From sequence record NC_002167.1: a stretch of DNA of 39,732 nucleotides. One strand, given 5' to 3'. The stretch comes from Escherichia phage HK97. A program made the position numbers and the translations under genes. Below the pieces are notes generated by a model, which was given only the letters and a program-made list of their open reading frames with translations, searched no databases and was not told the origin of the DNA. This document shows, one piece after another, positions 8,435-20,812 of the stretch. The stretch's first letter is position 1. The number at the start of each line of letters is the position of its first letter.

Positions 8435-11400
8435 ATGGCTACGTTGCGCGAACTGATCATCAAAATATCTGCAAACTCTCAGTCATTCCAGTCTGAAATT
8501 TCTCGTGCTTCAAGAATGGGGAATGACTATTACCGGGTAATGCAGACTGGAGGACGCCAATCGGCCGCAGCTTCGCGTGAAACTCAGCGTGCCTTGGCTG
8601 AGGTAACTAGTCAAATAAACACCGCGAAGGCCTCAGCACTGGGAATGGCTGGTGCATTTGCTGGAGCATTTGCGACTGGTCATCTTATATCGCTGGCCGA
8701 TGAATGGAGCTCTGTTAATGCCAGGCTAAAGCAGGCTTCCCAGTCGTCAGATGATTTCACGGAGTCCCAGCGGGCGCTGATGGATATTAGCCAGCGAACC
8801 GGAACCGCCTTCTCTGATAATGCGAGTCTTTTTGCGCGTTCAGCCGCTTCTATGCGTGAATATGGCTACAGTTCAGAAGAGGTTCTGAAGGTAACCGAGG
8901 CTATATCAACAGGGCTTAAGCTGTCAGGCGCAAGCGCGTCTGAAGCGAGTTCGGTAATCACGCAGTTCAGCCAGGCTCTGGCGCAGGGTGTTCTTCGAGG
9001 CGAGGAATTTAACTCCGTCAACGAAAACGGTGATCGAGTTATCCGTGCTCTTGCCGCAGGGATGGGTGTAGCTCGTAAAGATCTGAAGGCAATGGCCGAT
9101 CAGGGGATGCTAACCGCAGATAAAGTTGTCCCGGCCCTGATAAGTCAACTTGGCACTATGCGTGGTGAATTTGAGGCAATGCCGCAGACCGTTTCTGCTG
9201 CCACGACGAAAGTCGAAAATGCTTTCATGGCATGGGTAGGTGGCGCTAATGAAGCCACTGGTGCGACAAGTACTCTTGTTGCCGTATTGAATACGGTTTC
9301 TGACAATATAGACACTGTGGCTACGGCTGCCGGAGCTTTGGCTGCGATAGGTGGAGCTCGCTATCTTGGAGGGATGTTTGGCGATCTTGGGAACCAGACG
9401 GCGCAATTAATAGATGCCAGAAAGAACGAAATTGCGCTCGCAGCTGCAAGGGCTGAATCTGCTACCCAATCACAACGCAAGGCCGCCGCCGATGCTATTG
9501 CTGCTGAGCGAGCTTACCAGCTTGCTCAGTCAGAACTTGTGCTGGCAAAGAATACTAATGCTGAGGCTACTGCCACTCAAAATGCCATATCCAAGCGCCG
9601 GGCAATGATTACAGCAAATGCGGCACTGGTACAGTCAAACAGAGCCGTTGCAGCCTCTCAGCAGGCACTTAACTCTGCAACATCAGTGCTGGGGCTTGTA
9701 AAAACTGGCGCTACGGGTCTTTTGTCGTTAGTTGGTGGTTTGCCAGGAATTTTAATGTTGGGTGCTGGGGCGTGGTACACGATGTATCAACGCCAAGAAC
9801 AAGCCAGGGAATCTGCAATCCAATATGCGGACACAATCGAGCAGGTACGAGATAATCTGAAATCAATGTCTCAGACGCAGATATCCGCCAACCTTGGACA
9901 GGCGAATATTTCACTGGATGCTCAGAATAGTGCGATTGAACAGCAGAAGCAGAAAGTTGCTGAATTATCCAATCAACTTTATAACGCAAAATTAGCAGCC
10001 AATTCTGCTTCAGAGGGGACATGGCTGTATAACGATGCGGTTGAGAAAGCCGCAGACTTTGCTTCAGAACTTGCGGTTGAAGAAGGCCGACTTGAGCAAA
10101 TGCTCAATAAAAGAAAGCAAACACAACAGTTAATAAACGACATAACTGATCAGGCTATAAATAAAACAGTAGAAATGGCTGGCGCCGTAAGTTCTCTTAC
10201 AGAGATGTATGACCGGCTGAACAAGGTTTCCAGACAGTCTACAGCAGTGTCCCCACCAAAATATGCAGGACCTGTACTTCCTGCGCTTGATAATAAGCAA
10301 CAACAAGCTATTGAGAAAGCACAGCGACAGCTTGAGCTATCTGGCCTTCAGGGTTTGGATAAGGCTCGAAAGCAGGCAGAATTCGATGCATCTGATCTGA
10401 ACCTTCCAGCTGGTTGGCGTGAGAAATATGTCAGCATGGAAGTTGAGTCTGCTAGGCAATTACAAGCAATTCGTAACTCAAGCCGCCATAAGGGTGGAAA
10501 ATCCGAGGCGGAAAAAACAGCTGATACCTATGACAAGCTGATCAAGCAGCAAAAAGAGCAGATCGCTCTGCAAGGGCAGAATACCGAGCTGGCAAAGGTT
10601 AAATATCAGGTAAGCCAGGGTGAGCTTTCTACGCTAAGTCAGGCCCAGAAAGCCGAAGTTATGCGTAATGCTGCTCTCATCGATCAGGTTAAATTGCGTG
10701 GACAACTGCGAAATTACGAAGCCAACCTTGCTGACAGTAACGCCAGCGCCCGCGCAGCCAATGAAGCGCAACTGCTGGGCTACGGGCAGGGAACCAGGTT
10801 CCGTGAAAGACTTCAGGAGCAGTTCAATCTGCGTAAGGAGTTTGAGCAGAAGAATACCGATCTTCTCCGCCAGCGTCAGGCTGGTGAAATCGACGAGACG
10901 TTCTATCAGCAGGGGCTGGCACTTAATAAGCGCTACCTCGAAGAGCGCCTGCGCGACCAGGAGGGATATTACGCAGCTTCTGATGCGCAGCGTGACGACT
11001 GGATGACGGGACTGTCTGAGGGTTATGCGAACTGGGTGGATGAAGCGACAGATTACTCCTCCATGGCAGCTGACGGGATGAAGCAGGCAATGGGTGGGGC
11101 GGTAACTTCGATTACTGACATGCTCAATGGTAACGTCGACAGCTGGAAGGACTGGGGTGTCAGCGTACTGAAGATCATCCAGAATGTTCTGGTCAATATG
11201 GCTGTTGCTAACGGCGTCAGTTCAATTGGTTCTCTCTTCAGCTTTGGCGCATCTTCCGCCGCTGCCGCCAGTAGCGGTACTGCAATTCAGAACGCTGGCG
11301 CGAACTTCACCTTTAACGCGAAGGGTAATGTTTACGACTCTCCGTCCCTGAGCGCATACAGCAATGGCGTGTTTCAGACCCCTCAGCTTTTTGCTTTTGC

Positions 11401-15140: not shown

Positions 15141-18100
15141 ATGGCTACAGAGAAAGTATTAAAGGGCCGCAAGGGCGGCAGCTCCAGTTCACGAACTCCT
15201 ACCGAACAACCTGATGATCTGCAATCTGTAGCGAAGGCCAAAATCCTCGTTGCGCTTGGGGAAGGTGAGTTTGCAGGGCAGCTCACCGGCAAAGATATCT
15301 ACCTGGACGGAACAGCGCTGGAGAATGCTGACGGCTCCCAAAACTTCAGCGGGGTAACGTGGGAGTTTCGCGCGGGAACTCAGGCGCAAAAATATATTCA
15401 GGGTATTCCCGGTACCGAAAACGAGATCAGCGTAGGAACTGAGGTATCAAGTGCCACAACCTGGACGCGCACGTTTACCAATACGCAGCTTTCAGCAGTT
15501 CGCCTGCGTCTTAAATGGCCCTCGCTTTTCAAACAGGAGGACGACGGCGATCTGGTGGGTTACTCGGTCAATTATGCAATTGACCTGCAGACGGACGGCG
15601 GCACATGGCAGACGGTACTCAATACCAGCGTGACCGGCAAAACGACGTCTGGTTATGAGCGCAGCCACCGTATCGATTTACCGCAGGCTGGCAGCACATG
15701 GACAATACGTCTGCGTAAGATTACCTCTGACGCCAACAGCGCGAAGATCGGCGACACGATGATGCTGCAGAGCTTCACCGAGGTGATTGATGCCAAACTG
15801 CGCTACCCGAACACCGCGCTGCTCTACGTCGAATTCGACTCAAGCCAGTTCAACGGCTCTATTCCTCAAATTTCATGCGAACCGCGCGGCCGCGTTATCC
15901 GCGTTCCAGATACCTACGACCCTGAAACCCGCACTTATAGCGGTACATGGACCGGTGCGTTTAAGTGGGCATGGACGGATAACCCTGCGTGGATTTTTTA
16001 CGACCTGGTTGTTTCTGACCGGTTCGGCCTTGGGCACCGTTTGACCGCTGCGAATATTGATAAATGGACGCTTTATCAGGTTGCTCAGTATTGTGATCAG
16101 ATGGTACCAGACGGCAAAGGGGGCAACGGTACAGAACCACGTTATACCTGCAACGTGTACATTCAGGACCGGAACGACGCCTACACAGTCCTGCGTGATT
16201 TTGCCGCTATCTTCCGTGGCATGACCTACTGGGGCGGGGATCAGATTGTGGCCCTGGCTGACATGCCGCGCGATGTTGATTACAGCTATACGCGCGCTAA
16301 CGTTGTTGGCGGTCGCTTCACCTATTCGAGCAGCACCACGAAAAGCCGCTACACCACAGCGCTGGTTTCATGGTCAGACCCGGGTAACGCTTATGCCGAC
16401 GCGATGGAACCGGTATTTGAGCAGGCGCTGGTGGCGCGGTACGGCTTCAATCAGCTGGAAATGACAGCCATCGGCTGCACCAGGCAGTCAGAGGCGAACC
16501 GAAAGGGGCGCTGGGGTATTCTCACCAATAACAAGGATCGCGTTGTTTCGTTTGATGTCGGGCTGGACGGAAACATTCCGCAGCCGGGCTACATCATCGC
16601 CGTGGCAGACGAGCTGCTTTCCGGAAAGGTTATGGGCGGCCGCATCAGCGCCGTTAACGGTCGCGTTATCAAACTTGACCGCGTAGCTGATGCAGCACCA
16701 GGTGATCGCCTTATTCTCAACCTGCCTTCCGGAGCGTCGCAGAGCAGGACCATTCAGGCCGTGAACGGGGAATCAGTCACAGTCACCACGGCATACAGTG
16801 AGACGCCACAGGCCGAAGCTGTTTGGGTGGTTGAATCTGACGAGCTTTACGCGCAGCAGTATCGTGTTGTCAGCGTTTCCGATAACAATGATGGCACTTT
16901 CTCGATTACCGGCGCATGGCACGACCCGGATAAATATGCCCGTATCGATACCGGAGCCATCATTGACCAACGGCCGGTGAGCGTGATCCCGCCGGGCAAC
17001 CAGTCGCCGCCTGCGAATATCGTGATCAGCTCGTTTTCCGTGGTTCAGCAAAATATCAGCGTCGAAACAATGCGCGTGAGCTGGGACCAGGCGCAGAACG
17101 CTATCGCCTATGAAGCGCAATGGCGCCGCAACGACGGGAACTGGGTTAACGTGCCGCGCACCTCCACCACGTCATTCGACGTCCCGGGGATTTATGCCGG
17201 GCGCTACCTGGTGCGGGTGCGCGCAATCAATGCCGCAGAAATTTCATCCGGATGGGGCTATTCAGAAGAGAAAACGCTGACGGGTAAAGTGGGCAATCCA
17301 CCGAAGCCGGTTGGCTTTATCGCCTCTGAAAACGTGGTGTTCGGTATCGAGCTGAACTGGGGATTCCCGGCGAATACCGACGACACGCTGAAGACGGAAA
17401 TTCAGTACAGCCTGACCGGTACTGAAGACGATGCCATGCTGCTGGCCGATGTGCCTTACCCGCAGCGCAAATATCAGCAGATGGGCCTTAAGGCTGGGCA
17501 GATTTTCTGGTACCGCGCGCAGCTGGTTGACCGCAGCGGTAACGAGTCAGGTTATACCGGCTGGGTTCGTGGGCAGGCCAGTATCGATGTTTCTGACATC
17601 ACAGATGTGATCCTTGAAGACATCAAAGGGTCTGAGACGTTCAAAGACCTGATCGAGAACGCTGTGGACAGCAATGAAAAAATTGCTGGCATGGCTGACG
17701 ACATCAAACAGGCCAACGATGAACTTGAACTCCAGGCGCAGGAAATCGCAAAAAACGCGCAGGACATCGGGCAGGTTCAGACCAGCGTTAATGAGCTTTC
17801 TAGCACGGTCGGTGATGTGTCGTCTTCTCTCTCAGATCTTGAGCAGACTGTTGCGACTGCTGATACCGCACTGGGCCAGCGAATCGACAGCATCAGCGTG
17901 TCTATGGACGGCATGACGGGCGGGGTGAAGAACTCTGCTATCGCAATTATTCAGGGCAACCTGGCGCAGGTAGCCGCGCGTAAAACGTTGTCTGCATCTG
18001 TAGCAGGGAACAGCGCTCAGCTGGACCGTCTAGACGAGGTGATCGTCAGTGAGAAGGAAGCCACAGCACGTTCATTGCTGAGCCTGCAGACGGACGTCAA

Positions 18101-19031
18101 CGGCAACAAGGCATCCATCAACAGCCTGAATCAGACGCTCTCCGACTATCAGCAGGCCACCGCCACGCAGATAAACGGCATCACGGCGACCGTGAACGGG
18201 CATACCTCCGCCATCACCACTAACGCTCAGGCTATAGCCAACGTTAATGGCGAACTCAGCGCGATGTACAACATCAAGGTTGGTGTCTCCAGCAACGGGC
18301 AGTATTACGCCGCGGGCATGGGGATTGGCGTTGGGAACACGCCGTCAGGCATGCAGTCGCAGGTTATCTTCCTGGCTGACCCGTTCGCCGTCACCACGGC
18401 AGCAGGTAACAGCGTGGCTTTGCCGTTCGTGATCCAGAACGGGCAGACATTCATCCGGGCCAGCTTCATCCAGGACGGCACCATTGAGAACGCCAAAATC
18501 GGCAACTATATCCAGTCCAACAACTATGCAGCTGGTTCTGCTGGTTGGAAGTTGAATAAAGCTGGAGATGCTGAATTCAACAATGTGACCGTCAGAGGTG
18601 TAGTATATGCTAGTGGCGGTAGCTTTACTGGTGAGATCCAAGCAACAAGCGGTAAATTCAAAGGGACTGTGGAAGCCCAAAGTTTTATCGGGGACATTGC
18701 AAATATGCACACCGGAACTAACGTTAGTCGGTCTAGTAACGGTCTTTTAGAAAAGGTAATAACTTATACGGATTCATCCAGTTCTGGGCACGCAAGACAC
18801 GTCTGTGTTATAGCAAACGTGAGAGGGAATGGTGCAGGTACGATAAATATTAACGGATCTGAGGGCTCTTCCAGCGTACAGGATGTAGAACGACTTATTA
18901 TGCATTCTGCTGTTGTAACTGGTCCAAACGTTACGGTAAGAATTACAGTTTCCGCTCAGAACAATAGAGGGGCGTCTATATCCTCACCTACTATTATTGT
19001 TTCGCACGGATCCGGTTCATTCACTGGTTAA
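15141..19031 (+). CDS. J: tail tip / host specificity protein J-like
   Basis: 1296-aa ORF after I; size and position as lambda gpJ; C-terminal about 170 codons are compositionally distinct (AT-rich). Confidence 0.85.
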   Translation: MATEKVLKGRKGGSSSSRTPTEQPDDLQSVAKAKILVALGEGEFAGQLTGKDIYLDGTALENADGSQNFSGVTWEFRAGTQAQKYIQGIPGTENEISVGTEVSSATTWTRTFTNTQLSAVRLRLKWPSLFKQEDDGDLVGYSVNYAIDLQTDGGTWQTVLNTSVTGKTTSGYERSHRIDLPQAGSTWTIRLRKITSDANSAKIGDTMMLQSFTEVIDAKLRYPNTALLYVEFDSSQFNGSIPQISCEPRGRVIRVPDTYDPETRTYSGTWTGAFKWAWTDNPAWIFYDLVVSDRFGLGHRLTAANIDKWTLYQVAQYCDQMVPDGKGGNGTEPRYTCNVYIQDRNDAYTVLRDFAAIFRGMTYWGGDQIVALADMPRDVDYSYTRANVVGGRFTYSSSTTKSRYTTALVSWSDPGNAYADAMEPVFEQALVARYGFNQLEMTAIGCTRQSEANRKGRWGILTNNKDRVVSFDVGLDGNIPQPGYIIAVADELLSGKVMGGRISAVNGRVIKLDRVADAAPGDRLILNLPSGASQSRTIQAVNGESVTVTTAYSETPQAEAVWVVESDELYAQQYRVVSVSDNNDGTFSITGAWHDPDKYARIDTGAIIDQRPVSVIPPGNQSPPANIVISSFSVVQQNISVETMRVSWDQAQNAIAYEAQWRRNDGNWVNVPRTSTTSFDVPGIYAGRYLVRVRAINAAEISSGWGYSEEKTLTGKVGNPPKPVGFIASENVVFGIELNWGFPANTDDTLKTEIQYSLTGTEDDAMLLADVPYPQRKYQQMGLKAGQIFWYRAQLVDRSGNESGYTGWVRGQASIDVSDITDVILEDIKGSETFKDLIENAVDSNEKIAGMADDIKQANDELELQAQEIAKNAQDIGQVQTSVNELSSTVGDVSSSLSDLEQTVATADTALGQRIDSISVSMDGMTGGVKNSAIAIIQGNLAQVAARKTLSASVAGNSAQLDRLDEVIVSEKEATARSLLSLQTDVNGNKASINSLNQTLSDYQQATATQINGITATVNGHTSAITTNAQAIANVNGELSAMYNIKVGVSSNGQYYAAGMGIGVGNTPSGMQSQVIFLADPFAVTTAAGNSVALPFVIQNGQTFIRASFIQDGTIENAKIGNYIQSNNYAAGSAGWKLNKAGDAEFNNVTVRGVVYASGGSFTGEIQATSGKFKGTVEAQSFIGDIANMHTGTNVSRSSNGLLEKVITYTDSSSSGHARHVCVIANVRGNGAGTININGSEGSSSVQDVERLIMHSAVVTGPNVTVRITVSAQNNRGASISSPTIIVSHGSGSFTG

Positions 19032-19048
19032 ACAAAACCCCGCATTAG

Positions 19049-19157
19049 GGAAGGTGCGAATAAGTACCCTCCGCAACGAAAATGAAACTTTTAGTCAATT
19101 AAATTCAATCACTTACATAGGCGTTTTTTTGCGTTTGGTGACTTATTCGCACCTTCC
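19049..19157. repeat. 17-bp perfect inverted repeat flanking a 75-bp AT-rich spacer
   Basis: ggaaggtgcgaataagt at 19049-19065; exact reverse complement acttattcgcaccttcc at 19141-19157. Confidence 0.8.
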
Positions 19158-19238
19158 TTAAAAACCAATTCAGAAATTATTTCTGGTGAGGGTTATATAC
19201 CTCTCCGGGCTTCATGTTGTCTAAATTTAGGAGTTGTT

Positions 19239-20204
19239 ATGATTTATAGCACCGGAACTATCTCTATTAACGGAAATACCGCAACCGGCTCCGGTACAAA
19301 CTGGACAGCTCCCGCCAGCCAGGTCCGCGCTGGCCAGACGATTATCGTGATGTCTAACCCGGTGCAGCTGTTTCAGATTTCATCCGTGAACAGCGCCACG
19401 TCAATGACGGTTACTCCAGCTGCTTCCCCTGCGCTGAGCGGCCAGAAGTATGGAATTCTTGTGTCGGACATTATCTCGGTCGACGGACTGGCACAGGCGA
19501 TGTCACAGCTCATCAAAGAGTACGACGAGAACATTGGCGCGTGGGAGACGTTCGCCAGCACCTCAGCAAACCAAAGCATCACAGTTACCATCAACGGCAC
19601 CGCCGTAACCATCCCAGGCATCGGTAAACTTGCGCAGAAAGGGAGCAACGGTGCGGTTACTGTCGCAGACGGCGGAACCGGCGCAACGAATGCCGCAGAC
19701 GCTCGCACAAACCTTGGTTTGGGAGAAGGCTCTGCATTACCTGTTGGTGTCCCTGTTCCGTGGCCTTCCGCCACTCCGCCAACAGGCTGGCTGAAATGCA
19801 ACGGTGCGGTTTTTTCTGCTGAAGAATACCCGGAACTGGCAAAGGCTTATCCAACAAATAAATTGCCTGATTTACGTGGTGAGTTTATTCGTGGTTGGGA
19901 TGACGGGCGCGGTATTGACGCGGGGCGCGAAATTCTGTCTGCTCAGGGGGATGCTATTCGTAATATAACCGGCACATTTGGCGATGGAGAAACCGAAGTT
20001 AATGCGTCTATTAGCTTTTATAGGGCGGATGGTGTTTTTGTAACTCAGAAAAAACTTCGTAATACGATAGGTAACACCACAATCATTGCGGATACCCCAA
20101 ACAATCCTTATTTAATCAATTTTGATGCTTCAAGAGTAGTGCCAACTGCCTCAGAGAACAGACCAAGAAACATTGCATTTAACTACATTGTAAGGGCAGT
20201 ATAA
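19239..20204 (+). CDS. side tail fibre protein
   Basis: 321-aa ORF with SD aggag; Gly/Thr/Ala-rich repeats and tail-collar-like segment; last about 250 nt AT-rich. Confidence 0.65.
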   Translation: MIYSTGTISINGNTATGSGTNWTAPASQVRAGQTIIVMSNPVQLFQISSVNSATSMTVTPAASPALSGQKYGILVSDIISVDGLAQAMSQLIKEYDENIGAWETFASTSANQSITVTINGTAVTIPGIGKLAQKGSNGAVTVADGGTGATNAADARTNLGLGEGSALPVGVPVPWPSATPPTGWLKCNGAVFSAEEYPELAKAYPTNKLPDLRGEFIRGWDDGRGIDAGREILSAQGDAIRNITGTFGDGETEVNASISFYRADGVFVTQKKLRNTIGNTTIIADTPNNPYLINFDASRVVPTASENRPRNIAFNYIVRAV

Positions 20205-20812
20205 TGACCACAAAAGAAATCACCTTAGATGAAAACGGATTCGCAACAGAAGCTGGCTTCATCACCGTTTACAACTACAGCGGTGAAACGCGGGAATATA
20301 TTTCCACATCAACTGAATATCTTGCCGTTGGTGTCGGTATCCCGGCATGTTCTTGTTTAGATGCACCAGTTACACATAAAGCTGGTTATGCAATCTGCCG
20401 TTCTGCAGATTTTAACTCATGGGAATATGTGCCAGACCATCGCGGTGAAATCGTCTTTAGCACCGAAACAGGAGAATCAAAAGAAATCACAGCTCCGGGT
20501 GATTACCCTGATAATACAACCACTATCGCCCCGTTAACACCATACGATAAATGGGATGGTGAGAAATGGGTGACGGATACCGAAGCACAGCATAGCGCCG
20601 CAGTAGATGCAGCAGAAGCACAGCGCCAGTCACTGATTGATACTGCAATGGCTTCAATCAGTCTGATTCAGCTGAAATTACAGGCCGGACGGAAGTTGAC
20701 GCAGGCAGAAACAACCCGACTTAACGCCGTGCTGGATTACATTGACGCGGTGACGGCAACAGATACCAGCACCGCGCCGGATGTCATCTGGCCTGAACTG
20801 CCGGAGGCGTAG
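20204..20812 (+). CDS. tail fibre assembly protein (Tfa-like)
   Basis: 202-aa ORF coupled (ATGA) to the fibre gene; sequence resembles Tfa family. Confidence 0.7.
   Translation: MTTKEITLDENGFATEAGFITVYNYSGETREYISTSTEYLAVGVGIPACSCLDAPVTHKAGYAICRSADFNSWEYVPDHRGEIVFSTETGESKEITAPGDYPDNTTTIAPLTPYDKWDGEKWVTDTEAQHSAAVDAAEAQRQSLIDTAMASISLIQLKLQAGRKLTQAETTRLNAVLDYIDAVTATDTSTAPDVIWPELPEA

What the first reader, a model, noticed from the sequence alone, without database searches (positions are those of the whole stretch)
19049..19157. 17-bp perfect inverted repeat bracketing a 75-bp AT-rich segment between J and the side tail fibre gene
ggaaggtgcgaataagt (19049-19065) and its exact reverse complement (19141-19157) flank an AT-rich spacer that itself contains a T7 run. 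As RNA this would form a long stem-loop just upstream of the fibre gene SD. As DNA it resembles a pair of recombination sites or a cruciform. It lies at a junction where tail-fibre modules are commonly exchanged.
Basis: seen in the sequence. Interest (0 to 1): 0.45.

Follow-up and report, generated by a model that had tools for sequence, protein, structure and literature searches.

The report
IS5-type miniature transposon in phage HK97
The inverted repeat is the pair of ends of a 109-bp non-autonomous mobile element (a MITE with insertion sequence IS5-type ends) sitting between the tail-tip gene J and the side-fibre gene of phage HK97, at a spot where about 670 bp found in related prophages is missing; it is an ordinary mobile-DNA insertion, not a purpose-built fibre-gene regulator.

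Summary
In detail: perfect 17-nt arms at 19049-19065 and 19141-19157 bracket a 75-bp, 36% GC core. The window is phage HK97. The 109-bp unit is a dispersed mobile element. Identical or near-identical copies sit at 134 places in 32 of 5426 E. coli genomes, on plasmids of several genera and in 8 unrelated viral contigs. 14 of 20 other copies have perfect 4-bp YTAR duplications. Removing the element in silico restores three broken genes. Its arms equal the terminal repeats of IS5 (16/16) and ISEc68 (17-18/18); its core matches neither. It has no transposase gene. The same 17+75+17 layout with 4-bp repeats was published in 2017 for an Aeromonas MITE, about 72% identical. In HK97 the flanks are TTAG and TTAA. 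Homology to related prophages resumes at the first base after the right arm. The left arm abuts the 5' half of the post-J terminator. The terminator's 3' half, a lipoprotein gene and a gene remnant are absent. Most likely reading: insertion by an IS5-group transposase acting in trans, plus an element-associated deletion. Any effect on fibre expression is untested. Novelty is low: a new copy of a known kind.

The parts
15141..19031 (+). Tail-tip / host-specificity gene J (context); stop codon TAA at 19029-19031
   Evidence: ORF list. About 90% identical over its 3' end to annotated gpJ / TipJ genes of E. coli prophages.
19034..19043 (+). AAAACCCCGC: surviving 5' half of the terminator hairpin that follows J in relatives; the 3' half is missing here
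   Evidence: Viral contig L089 has the same J end followed by ACAAAACCCCGC-TAAT-GCGGGGTTATTTTT. Prophage L025 has a similar hairpin. That the HK97 ancestor had the full hairpin is inference.
19045..19048 (.). Left flank TTAG, a YTAR-type target-site copy
   Evidence: TTAG is the commonest duplication among other copies.
19049..19065 (+). Left terminal inverted repeat of the element
   Evidence: 16/16 identical to an IS5 end. 17/17 identical to the ISEc68 end (PMC6763765).
19066..19140 (.). 75-bp AT-rich core with no coding capacity for a transposase, an inner imperfect inverted repeat and a T7 run (19124-19130)
   Evidence: No similarity to the interior of IS5 or ISEc68. Colinear with Aeromonas and plasmid subfamilies.
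19141..19157 (-). Right terminal inverted repeat of the element
   Evidence: Exact reverse complement of the left arm. 18/18 with one ISEc68 end when the adjacent base is included.
19158..19161 (.). Right flank TTAA. In relatives this is native sequence whose TAA is the stop codon of the DUF6453 remnant gene
   Evidence: Homology to four prophages begins exactly at 19158. CDS ends are given.
19162..19238 (+). Retained intergenic leader of the fibre gene with its Shine-Dalgarno sequence AGGAG (19229-19233)
   Evidence: Part of the 19158-19648/19771 stretches that are 90-96% identical to the DNA upstream of the fibre genes in prophages L023-L026.
19239..20204 (+). Side tail fibre gene (HK97 gp28; context)
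   Evidence: Exact match to NP_037718.1. Pfam phage tail Collar domain.
20204..20812 (+). Tail fibre assembly gene (context)
   Evidence: Pfam Caudo_TAP, E = 4e-33.

Best explanation
[quoted passage not shown] It encodes nothing. It is presumably moved by an IS5-group DDE transposase made elsewhere in the host cell, which binds the two arms, cuts the target with a 4-bp stagger at a YTAR site and leaves a 4-bp duplication (inferred from IS5 biology, not tested here). The copy entered an ancestor of HK97 in a wild host. The insertion point was probably the TTAG in the loop/3' stem of the terminator hairpin just after J. An element-associated deletion then probably removed about 670 bp up to the TTAA that ends the DUF6453 remnant gene. 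That deletion could have come from recombination with a second copy inserted at that TTAA, from a transposase-mediated adjacent deletion, or from insertion into the break of a deletion event. This left flanks TTAG and TTAA. It removed the terminator's 3' half, an antisense 77-aa lipoprotein gene and the remnant of a membrane-protein gene. It brought J within 207 bp of the fibre gene. Shown: the element's identity, its mobility elsewhere and the coincidence of breakpoints with its ends. Inferred: the transposase partner, the order of events and the deletion mechanism. The hairpin it places in the late mRNA is a by-product, and any effect on fibre expression is untested.
For: Multi-copy and dispersed: 134 places in 32 of 5426 E. 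coli genomes, up to 31 per genome, on chromosomes and plasmids. 89 plasmid records across Escherichia, Enterobacter, Aeromonas, Salmonella, Klebsiella and Vibrio, with subfamilies at about 85% and 75% identity. 8 IMG/VR contigs unrelated to HK97 apart from the element. Insertion signature: 14 of 20 other copies have perfect 4-bp duplications (TTAG, TTAA, TTAT, CTAG, CTAA), matching the IS5 motif 5'-YTAR-3' (PMC5009759). Removing the element plus one duplication in silico restores open frames in ttdA (48 to at least 172 aa), gspC (37 to at least 199 aa) and a P2-like tail fibre gene (81 to 711 aa). Ends: 16/16 with IS5, 17-18/18 with ISEc68; interior unrelated to either. An unrelated 94-96-bp element with the same 17-bp arms in Amphritea has YTAR-type duplications in 11 of 13 copies. 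Published family: Aeromonas pAC3 MITE with 75-bp core, 17-bp arms and 4-bp repeats (PMC5444012), colinear and about 72% identical. Deletion: right-hand homology to four prophages starts exactly at 19158. The left flank equals the 5' half of the post-J terminator of L089. Relatives carry about 690 bp between these points. Flanks differ (TTAG vs TTAA). Mismatched flanks are classically explained by recombination between copies or adjacent deletion (PMC11708052).
Against: No relative shows the predicted intermediate (element with TTAG on both sides and the downstream genes intact). The HK97 left junction was found nowhere else, so the order of events is inferred. Mismatched YTAR flanks are common in this family (6 of 20 here; only 4 of 12 copies in Fig. 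S2 of PMC5444012 have identical flanks), so the TTAG/TTAA mismatch alone is weak evidence for a deletion. The loop of the nearest intact terminator is TAAT, not ATTA, so the exact target in the ancestor is a reconstruction. The mobilising transposase is unidentified: ISEc68 co-occurs with the element in only one strain, and among the 34 full-length ISEc68 hits listed (of 37 records at >=99% identity) none is an element-rich genome. No transposition assay exists for this element.
Confidence: 0.9

Rival explanations
1. Same element, different history. The roughly 670-bp deletion already existed in the HK97 ancestor. The element later inserted by simple transposition into the TTAR at that junction, and one of the two 4-bp duplicates then changed by one base.
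For: The J-fibre interval is deletion-prone without any element: prophage CX21 (L024) has an independent 617-bp deletion there. One-base mismatches between flanks are frequent in this family.
Against: It requires the insertion to land exactly on a pre-existing junction, one of 332 YTAR sites in the genome, and also a later point mutation. The predicted empty site was not found in the viral or metagenome collections, though absence is weak evidence.
Confidence: 0.22
2. Whatever its origin, the hairpin now works as an RNA element in the late transcript. A 21-24-bp stem between J and the fibre gene could act as an RNase III site or a 3' exonuclease barrier, setting fibre and assembly protein levels relative to J. 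This does not exclude the MITE explanation.
For: Very stable predicted hairpin (-66.6 kcal/mol, z = -6.3). It sits 81 nt upstream of the fibre start codon. The native terminator after J is destroyed, so J and the fibre gene are probably co-transcribed across it (inference).
Against: The sequence is 109/109 identical to copies at unrelated sites, so nothing in it is adapted to this locus. No Rfam family matches above noise. No relative with this fibre gene carries it. No expression data exist.
Confidence: 0.1
3. The arms are crossover sites of a site-specific inversion system, or a cruciform-forming recombination hotspot that exchanges fibre modules.
For: Perfect inverted repeats next to fibre genes recall the Gin/Cin/Pin fibre switches. 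A relative (L025) has opposed fibre-assembly genes next to a recombinase gene downstream of its fibre gene.
Against: The enclosed segment is 75 bp and non-coding, so inverting it would change nothing. I saw no invertase gene by the fibre genes: after the assembly gene comes a minus-strand 356-aa ORF at the position where relative HK106 has its integrase, annotated there as similar to the HK97 integrase; this ORF was not scanned here. The arms are IS5 ends. The unit is dispersed with target duplications. A 75-nt loop strongly disfavours cruciform extrusion in duplex DNA (general knowledge).
Confidence: 0.02
4. The structure is the intrinsic transcription terminator of the J operon.
For: It lies immediately after the J stop codon and holds a T7 run.
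Against: The consensus scan finds no terminator on either strand. The T-run is inside the loop, not after the stem. The stem is followed by UUAAAAACC. The recognisable terminator of relatives is the short GC hairpin, of which only the 5' half remains here.
Confidence: 0.03

Closest known systems
MITE of Aeromonas plasmid pAC3 and relatives (Kim et al., mSphere 2017, PMC5444012)
   Same: Identical layout: 17-bp terminal inverted repeats, 75-bp core, 109 bp in total, 4-bp flanking repeats of the CTAG/CTAA/TTAG kind. It aligns colinearly, and intermediate subfamilies (84-85% identical) occur on Aeromonas and enterobacterial plasmids.
   Different: Only about 72% identical to the pAC3 copy. The arms differ at two positions on one side (GGAAAGTGCGAACAAGT). 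The HK97/E. coli subfamily and its presence in a phage were not reported in that paper. That paper did not name the parent insertion sequence in the text I read.
IS5 (1195 bp) and ISEc68 (1197 bp), IS5 group of the IS5 family
   Same: The terminal repeats match (IS5 16/16 on both arms; ISEc68 17-18/18 on one end). Both give the same 4-bp YTAR target duplication.
   Different: The element has no transposase gene. Its 75-bp core shares nothing with either insertion sequence, so it is not a simple internal-deletion derivative of them. It is about eleven times shorter.
Other bacterial MITEs that form RNA hairpins in transcripts (ERIC, Correia, RUP)
   Same: Small, non-coding and palindromic; transcribed as part of neighbouring mRNAs; found in intergenic regions and sometimes inside genes (review PMC10969869).
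   Different: No sequence relationship. Those elements have documented effects on mRNA stability or processing, and none is documented for this one.
Insertion-sequence-associated adjacent deletions and recombination between copies (e.g. IS150, IS903, IS5 in E. coli evolution experiments; PMC11708052)
   Same: A mobile element at the centre of a deletion with non-matching flanks.
   Different: Here the element is a 109-bp non-autonomous unit in a phage genome. The event is reconstructed from comparisons, not observed.

Membership tests
Bacterial MITE mobilised by IS5-group transposases | Small size (well under about 300 bp) and no transposase gene | tested here: met
   109 bp. The only ORF of at least 40 aa overlapping it is a 54-codon TTG-start frame (18997-19161) that runs in from J's 3' end.
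Bacterial MITE mobilised by IS5-group transposases | Terminal inverted repeats matching those of an autonomous insertion sequence | tested here: met
   16/16 with both IS5 ends (one end 16/17 over 17 nt). 17/17 and 18/18 with one ISEc68 end (PMC6763765).
Bacterial MITE mobilised by IS5-group transposases | Target-site duplication of the length and sequence made by that transposase (4 bp, YTAR), across the family | tested here: met
   14 of 20 other copies have perfect 4-bp duplications, nearly all YTAR. IS5 motif from PMC5009759.
Bacterial MITE mobilised by IS5-group transposases | Target-site duplication at this particular locus | tested here: inconclusive
   The flanks TTAG and TTAA are both YTAR sites but are not identical. 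This is explained by an associated deletion or by later change.
Bacterial MITE mobilised by IS5-group transposases | Many near-identical copies at unrelated sites, with presence/absence polymorphism | tested here: met
   134 places in 32 of 5426 E. coli genomes; plasmids of at least 9 genera; 8 viral contigs. In-silico excision restores three genes. Relatives of HK97 lack it.
Bacterial MITE mobilised by IS5-group transposases | Mobilisation in trans by the cognate transposase | not testable with these tools
   Needs a transposition assay. The co-occurrence test with ISEc68 was negative or uninformative. IS5 and ISKpn26-type elements make up most of the matches found in 1853 of 5426 genomes.
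pAC3-type Aeromonas MITE family (PMC5444012) | 17-bp arms + 75-bp core + 4-bp direct repeats, with sequence similarity to the published copies | tested here: met
   Same dimensions. Colinear alignment at about 72% identity to pAC3 (E = 1e-11 pairwise) and 84% to another Aeromonas plasmid copy (92/109). It is a diverged subfamily.
Site-specific DNA inversion switch for tail fibres (Gin/Cin/Pin type) | Invertase gene adjacent, and an invertible segment carrying alternative fibre coding ends between the repeats | tested here: not met
   The segment is 75 bp and non-coding. Downstream ORFs are the fibre gene, the assembly gene and a minus-strand 356-aa ORF where HK106 has its integrase; no ORF there was annotated or seen as an invertase, but the flanking ORFs were not scanned against protein families.
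Intrinsic (rho-independent) terminator | Short GC-rich stem, loop of 3-8 nt, U-tract directly after the stem | tested here: not met
   No terminator-like site at 18700-19500 on either strand. The loop is 75 nt and the stem is followed by TTAAAAACC.
Described structured RNA family (Rfam 15) | Score at or above a family's gathering threshold | tested here: not met
   The best hits are plant/animal microRNA precursor models at 19-26 bits against thresholds of 68-100 bits, i.e. a generic hairpin.

The most novel reading that the evidence does not exclude
The phage-borne copy is still mobile, and HK97 acts as a shuttle for it. On lysogeny or infection of a host that carries IS5-group transposases but lacks the element (such as E. 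coli K-12, which does not appear among the 36 element-bearing records), the copy could be mobilised into the host genome. The same transposase activity would have caused the deletion that stripped the terminator and accessory genes between J and the fibre gene, so a 109-bp parasite of a parasite would have reshaped the fibre operon and would now sit in its mRNA as a processing or stability hairpin.
Probability: 0.15. Interest if true: 0.5.

Novelty: new member of a known kind. Interest (0 to 1): 0.27.

Why it matters
It turns an unexplained palindrome in a heavily used model phage into an identified object: a copy of a mobile-element family that is currently spreading in E. coli, Salmonella, Enterobacter, Klebsiella, Aeromonas and Vibrio plasmids and chromosomes. 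Among 50,697 deposited phage records no other phage carries this element, so HK97 gives a clean, tractable example. It suggests how such an element can remodel the variable region between the tail-tip and fibre genes. For people who engineer HK97 or compare lambdoid fibre regions, it says the 109 bp are dispensable foreign DNA and that the native terminator after J is broken. For people who study insertion sequences, it offers a small natural substrate for testing IS5-group transposase action in trans. It does not reveal a new mechanism.

Tried and rejected
1. I looked for a relative with the HK97 left flank continuing into an intact site. The exact 19-mer was absent from viral contigs. A hairpin pattern returned 57 contigs, all unrelated generic terminators. 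Only the J-anchored pattern gave one useful contig, L089.
2. I looked for the empty site (CCCCGCATTARAAACCAATTCAG) and for the HK97 left junction in viral and metagenome collections. All four scans returned zero, so neither history is directly confirmed.
3. I tested ISEc68 as the specific driver by co-occurrence. Only strain ET76 has both, and none of the element-rich genomes appears among the full-length ISEc68 hits listed. ISEc68 is rejected as the obvious partner, but the IS5 group as a whole is not.
4. I looked for a parent insertion sequence sharing the core. Sensitive blastn against plasmids found only MITE-sized copies, and pairwise comparison with IS5 and ISEc68 matched only the ends.
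5. Rfam and the promoter/terminator consensus scans gave nothing.
6. I asked whether the lost lipoprotein is the Cor exclusion protein. There is no similarity.
7. The scan of species-representative genomes found no 109-bp copy, only the Amphritea element.
8. HK97's reported origin from pig dung could not be verified in the paper library and is kept as memory only.
9. The source record NC_002167 is not in the phage collection, so the depositors' annotation of this interval could not be read. The original HK97 genome paper (Juhala et al. 2000) was not among the search hits, so I cannot say whether it mentions the repeat.

Full report
**1. The observation**

GGAAGGTGCGAATAAGT at 19049-19065 and its exact reverse complement at 19141-19157 bracket 75 bp. 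The pairing extends to 21 nt (19045-19161) with one mismatch. With up to three mismatches allowed, the 17-mer occurs nowhere else in the window; 0.09 matches are expected by chance and none of 100 shuffles gave two. The spacer is 36% GC against 49.8% for the window and holds a T7 run at 19124-19130.

The repeat lies between a 1296-codon J-type ORF (15141-19031) and a 321-codon ORF (19239-20204). That ORF has a phage tail Collar domain and is followed by a fibre-assembly gene. Its product is exactly NP_037718.1, the tail fibre of phage HK97, recorded on a 39,732-bp contig. So the window is the HK97 genome.

**2. What it is**

The 109-bp unit is not specific to this locus.
- Near-identical copies, mostly 109/109, occur at 134 places in 32 of 5426 complete E. 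coli genomes. They are on chromosomes and plasmids, with up to 31 copies in one genome, some inside genes.
- Sensitive blastn finds it in 89 plasmid records from Escherichia, Enterobacter, Aeromonas, Salmonella, Klebsiella, Vibrio, Citrobacter, Providencia and Raoultella. There are subfamilies at about 85% and 75% identity.
- Eight IMG/VR viral contigs carry it and share nothing else with HK97.
- No other deposited phage among 50,697 records has it. No E. coli prophage with a related J-fibre junction has it either.

The copies carry the signature of transposition.
- Of 20 other copies examined with their flanks, 14 have perfect 4-bp direct duplications: TTAG, TTAA, TTAT, CTAG or CTAA.
- Removing the element plus one duplication in silico restores long open frames. 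ttdA goes from 48 to at least 172 aa, gspC from 37 to at least 199 aa, and a P2-like prophage tail fibre gene from 81 to 711 aa.

The arms are the ends of IS5-group insertion sequences.
- An annotated IS5 on plasmid Rts1 (1195 bp, itself flanked by TTAG/TTAG) ends in GGAAGGTGCGAATAAG and GGAAGGTGCGAACAAGT. That is 16/16 with both arms.
- ISEc68 (1197 bp; transposase 81% identical to that of IS5) has one end identical over 17-18 nt. This agrees with the published repeat (PMC6763765).
- Nothing in the 75-bp core resembles either insertion sequence.
- IS5 is known to duplicate 5'-YTAR-3' (PMC5009759).
- An unrelated 94-96-bp element in a marine Amphritea genome has the same 17-bp arms. It has YTAR-type duplications in 11 of 13 copies. 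So these ends recruit the same kind of transposition in different miniature elements.

The family is already in the literature. Kim et al. (mSphere 2017, PMC5444012) described in Aeromonas plasmid pAC3 a MITE with a 75-bp core, 17-bp terminal repeats and 4-bp direct repeats. The pAC3 copy is 109 bp in the plasmid record. It aligns colinearly with the HK97 copy at about 72% identity. Another Aeromonas plasmid copy is 84% identical (92/109).

Rfam has no matching family; only generic microRNA-hairpin models score, far below threshold. The consensus scans find no promoter or terminator in the element.

**3. What happened at this locus**

The flanks here are TTAG on the left and TTAA on the right. 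Both are YTAR sites, but they are not a duplication.

Comparison with relatives is informative. In four E. coli prophages (KCJ3K291, CX21, strain 97.3, Nissle 1917), homology on the right begins exactly at 19158, the first base after the right arm. It continues at 90-96% identity into the fibre gene. In those prophages the TTAA is native sequence, and in the three with an annotated DUF6453 gene (KCJ3K291, strain 97.3, Nissle 1917) its TAA is that gene's stop codon. That gene is only a C-terminal remnant of its family: Pfam positions 229-289 of 291 and phrog_1265, a membrane protein.

On the left, the 12 nt after the J stop codon (ACAAAACCCCGC) match the 5' half of a terminator hairpin. That hairpin is intact in viral contig L089, which has the same J end: ACAAAACCCCGC-TAAT-GCGGGGTTATTTTT. 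A similar hairpin occurs in strain 97.3.

Between these two points three of the relatives (KCJ3K291, strain 97.3, Nissle 1917) carry about 690 bp. This holds the terminator, an antisense 77-aa lipoprotein gene (phrog_12984, unrelated to Cor) and the DUF6453 remnant. HK97 has none of this. The element therefore sits exactly on both breakpoints of a deletion of about 670 bp.

The most economical history is insertion at a TTAG in the terminator loop/3' stem, followed by an element-associated deletion to the downstream TTAA. The deletion could have arisen by recombination with a second copy, by transposase-mediated adjacent deletion, or by insertion into a deletion break. These are the standard explanations for insertion sequences that lack matching duplications (PMC11708052).

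The alternative is simple insertion into a pre-existing junction followed by a flank mutation. That requires hitting one particular site among 332 YTAR sites in the genome.

There are caveats.
- The interval loses DNA without any element in prophage CX21.
- Mismatched flanks are common in this family: 6 of 20 here, and only 4 of 12 copies in the published Fig. S2 have identical flanks.
- Neither the empty junction nor the predicted intermediate was found in the viral or metagenome collections.

I put about 0.65 on an element-associated deletion and about 0.22 on a prior deletion. Both are conditional on the MITE identity, which I hold at about 0.9 or higher.

**4. How it works and what it does here**

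Mobilisation in trans by an IS5-group DDE transposase is inferred from the ends and the target duplications. It was not tested.

ISEc68 is not the evident driver. It is present at 99% identity or more in 37 records, shares only strain ET76 with the element-bearing genomes, and among the 34 full-length hits listed none is an element-rich genome. IS5 and ISKpn26-type elements make up most of the matches seen in about a third of genomes.

In HK97 the element lies inside what is probably the late transcript. There it would form a hairpin of -66.6 kcal/mol (z = -6.3), 81 nt upstream of the fibre start codon. The native terminator after J is broken. An effect on J/fibre mRNA processing or stability is possible but has no support beyond the fold.

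The sequence is identical to copies elsewhere, so it has not been adapted to this site. A cruciform or inversion role is very unlikely: the spacer is 75 bp and non-coding, and I saw no invertase gene near the fibre genes.

**5. Verdict**

The finding is real and now explained. It is one copy of a known kind of mobile element, an IS5-ended MITE of the family first reported in Aeromonas. It sits in a model phage at a deletion junction in the variable J-fibre interval.

New, as far as my searches go, are:
- its identification in HK97;
- its subfamily's spread in E. coli;
- the coincidence of its ends with the breakpoints.

Searches for the arm sequence and for HK97 together with IS5 found no prior mention. 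The original HK97 genome paper was not among the hits, so I cannot rule out that it mentions the repeat. No new mechanism is implied, so interest is low to moderate.

Noticed in passing
L001-L013 (Amphritea sp. 1_MG-2023 contigs): A different 94-96-bp miniature element with exactly the same 17-bp arms but an unrelated core is present in at least 13 copies in one marine Oceanospirillales genome. 11 of 13 copies have YTAR-type 4-bp duplications. IS5-type ends have therefore been captured by unrelated miniature elements in distant bacteria.
   Followed up: partly
Family-wide: L020, L021, L029, L093, L097, L098; Fig. S2 of PMC5444012: Mismatched flanking tetranucleotides are unexpectedly common in this family (6 of 20 copies here; 8 of 12 in the published figure). 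The differences are often at the outer Y or R position, while the central TA was kept in nearly all flanks seen. I have no tested explanation. Frequent recombination between copies, or a non-canonical feature of the transposition, are possibilities.
   Followed up: partly
L090 4001-4109 (E. coli MMC-J-0020 chromosome, P2-like prophage): An identical copy splits the tail fibre gene of a P2-like prophage (duplication CTAA). In-silico excision restores a 711-aa open frame. So the element has landed in a phage fibre region at least twice, here as a gene-killing insertion.
   Followed up: yes
L024 883-954 (E. coli CX21 prophage): An independent 617-bp deletion, with no mobile element, lies in the same J-fibre interval. 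It keeps the terminator and the last 20 nt before TTAA. The interval is evidently dispensable and prone to loss.
   Followed up: partly
L025 3514-5293 (E. coli O68:H12 strain 97.3 prophage): Downstream of its fibre gene this relative has two opposed fibre-assembly genes, a further minus-strand ORF annotated only as hypothetical, and an adjacent 'recombinase family protein' gene. This looks like a possible invertible fibre switch. I saw nothing comparable in the HK97 window.
   Followed up: no
L030 1501-1819 (Aeromonas allosaccharophila plasmid pK520-MPH): A copy of the element is interrupted by about 210 bp of extra DNA. The insert carries several GGATGAAA / TTTCATCC inverted motifs and may be a second small element nested inside the first.
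   Followed up: no
Host/source column: A large share of E. coli records carrying the element come from pigs or pig farms (strains CP53, G3X16-2, W444, EC24, PI7, PD4, PK13, EA7, HCP30S3 and HCP6S3, among others). From memory, HK97 was isolated from pig dung in Hong Kong. I could not verify this in the paper library.
   Followed up: partly
L023 914-1147 (-), L025 1842-2339 (-), L089 about 9090-9330 (-): The DNA missing from HK97 includes an antisense 77-aa lipoprotein gene (phrog_12984) placed just after J in related prophages. It is not similar to the Cor exclusion lipoprotein of HK022/HK106. Its function is unknown.
   Followed up: partly
window 18997-19161 (+): The mechanical ORF list shows a 54-codon TTG-start frame that begins inside the end of J and runs through the whole element. 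It is almost certainly not a gene.
   Followed up: no
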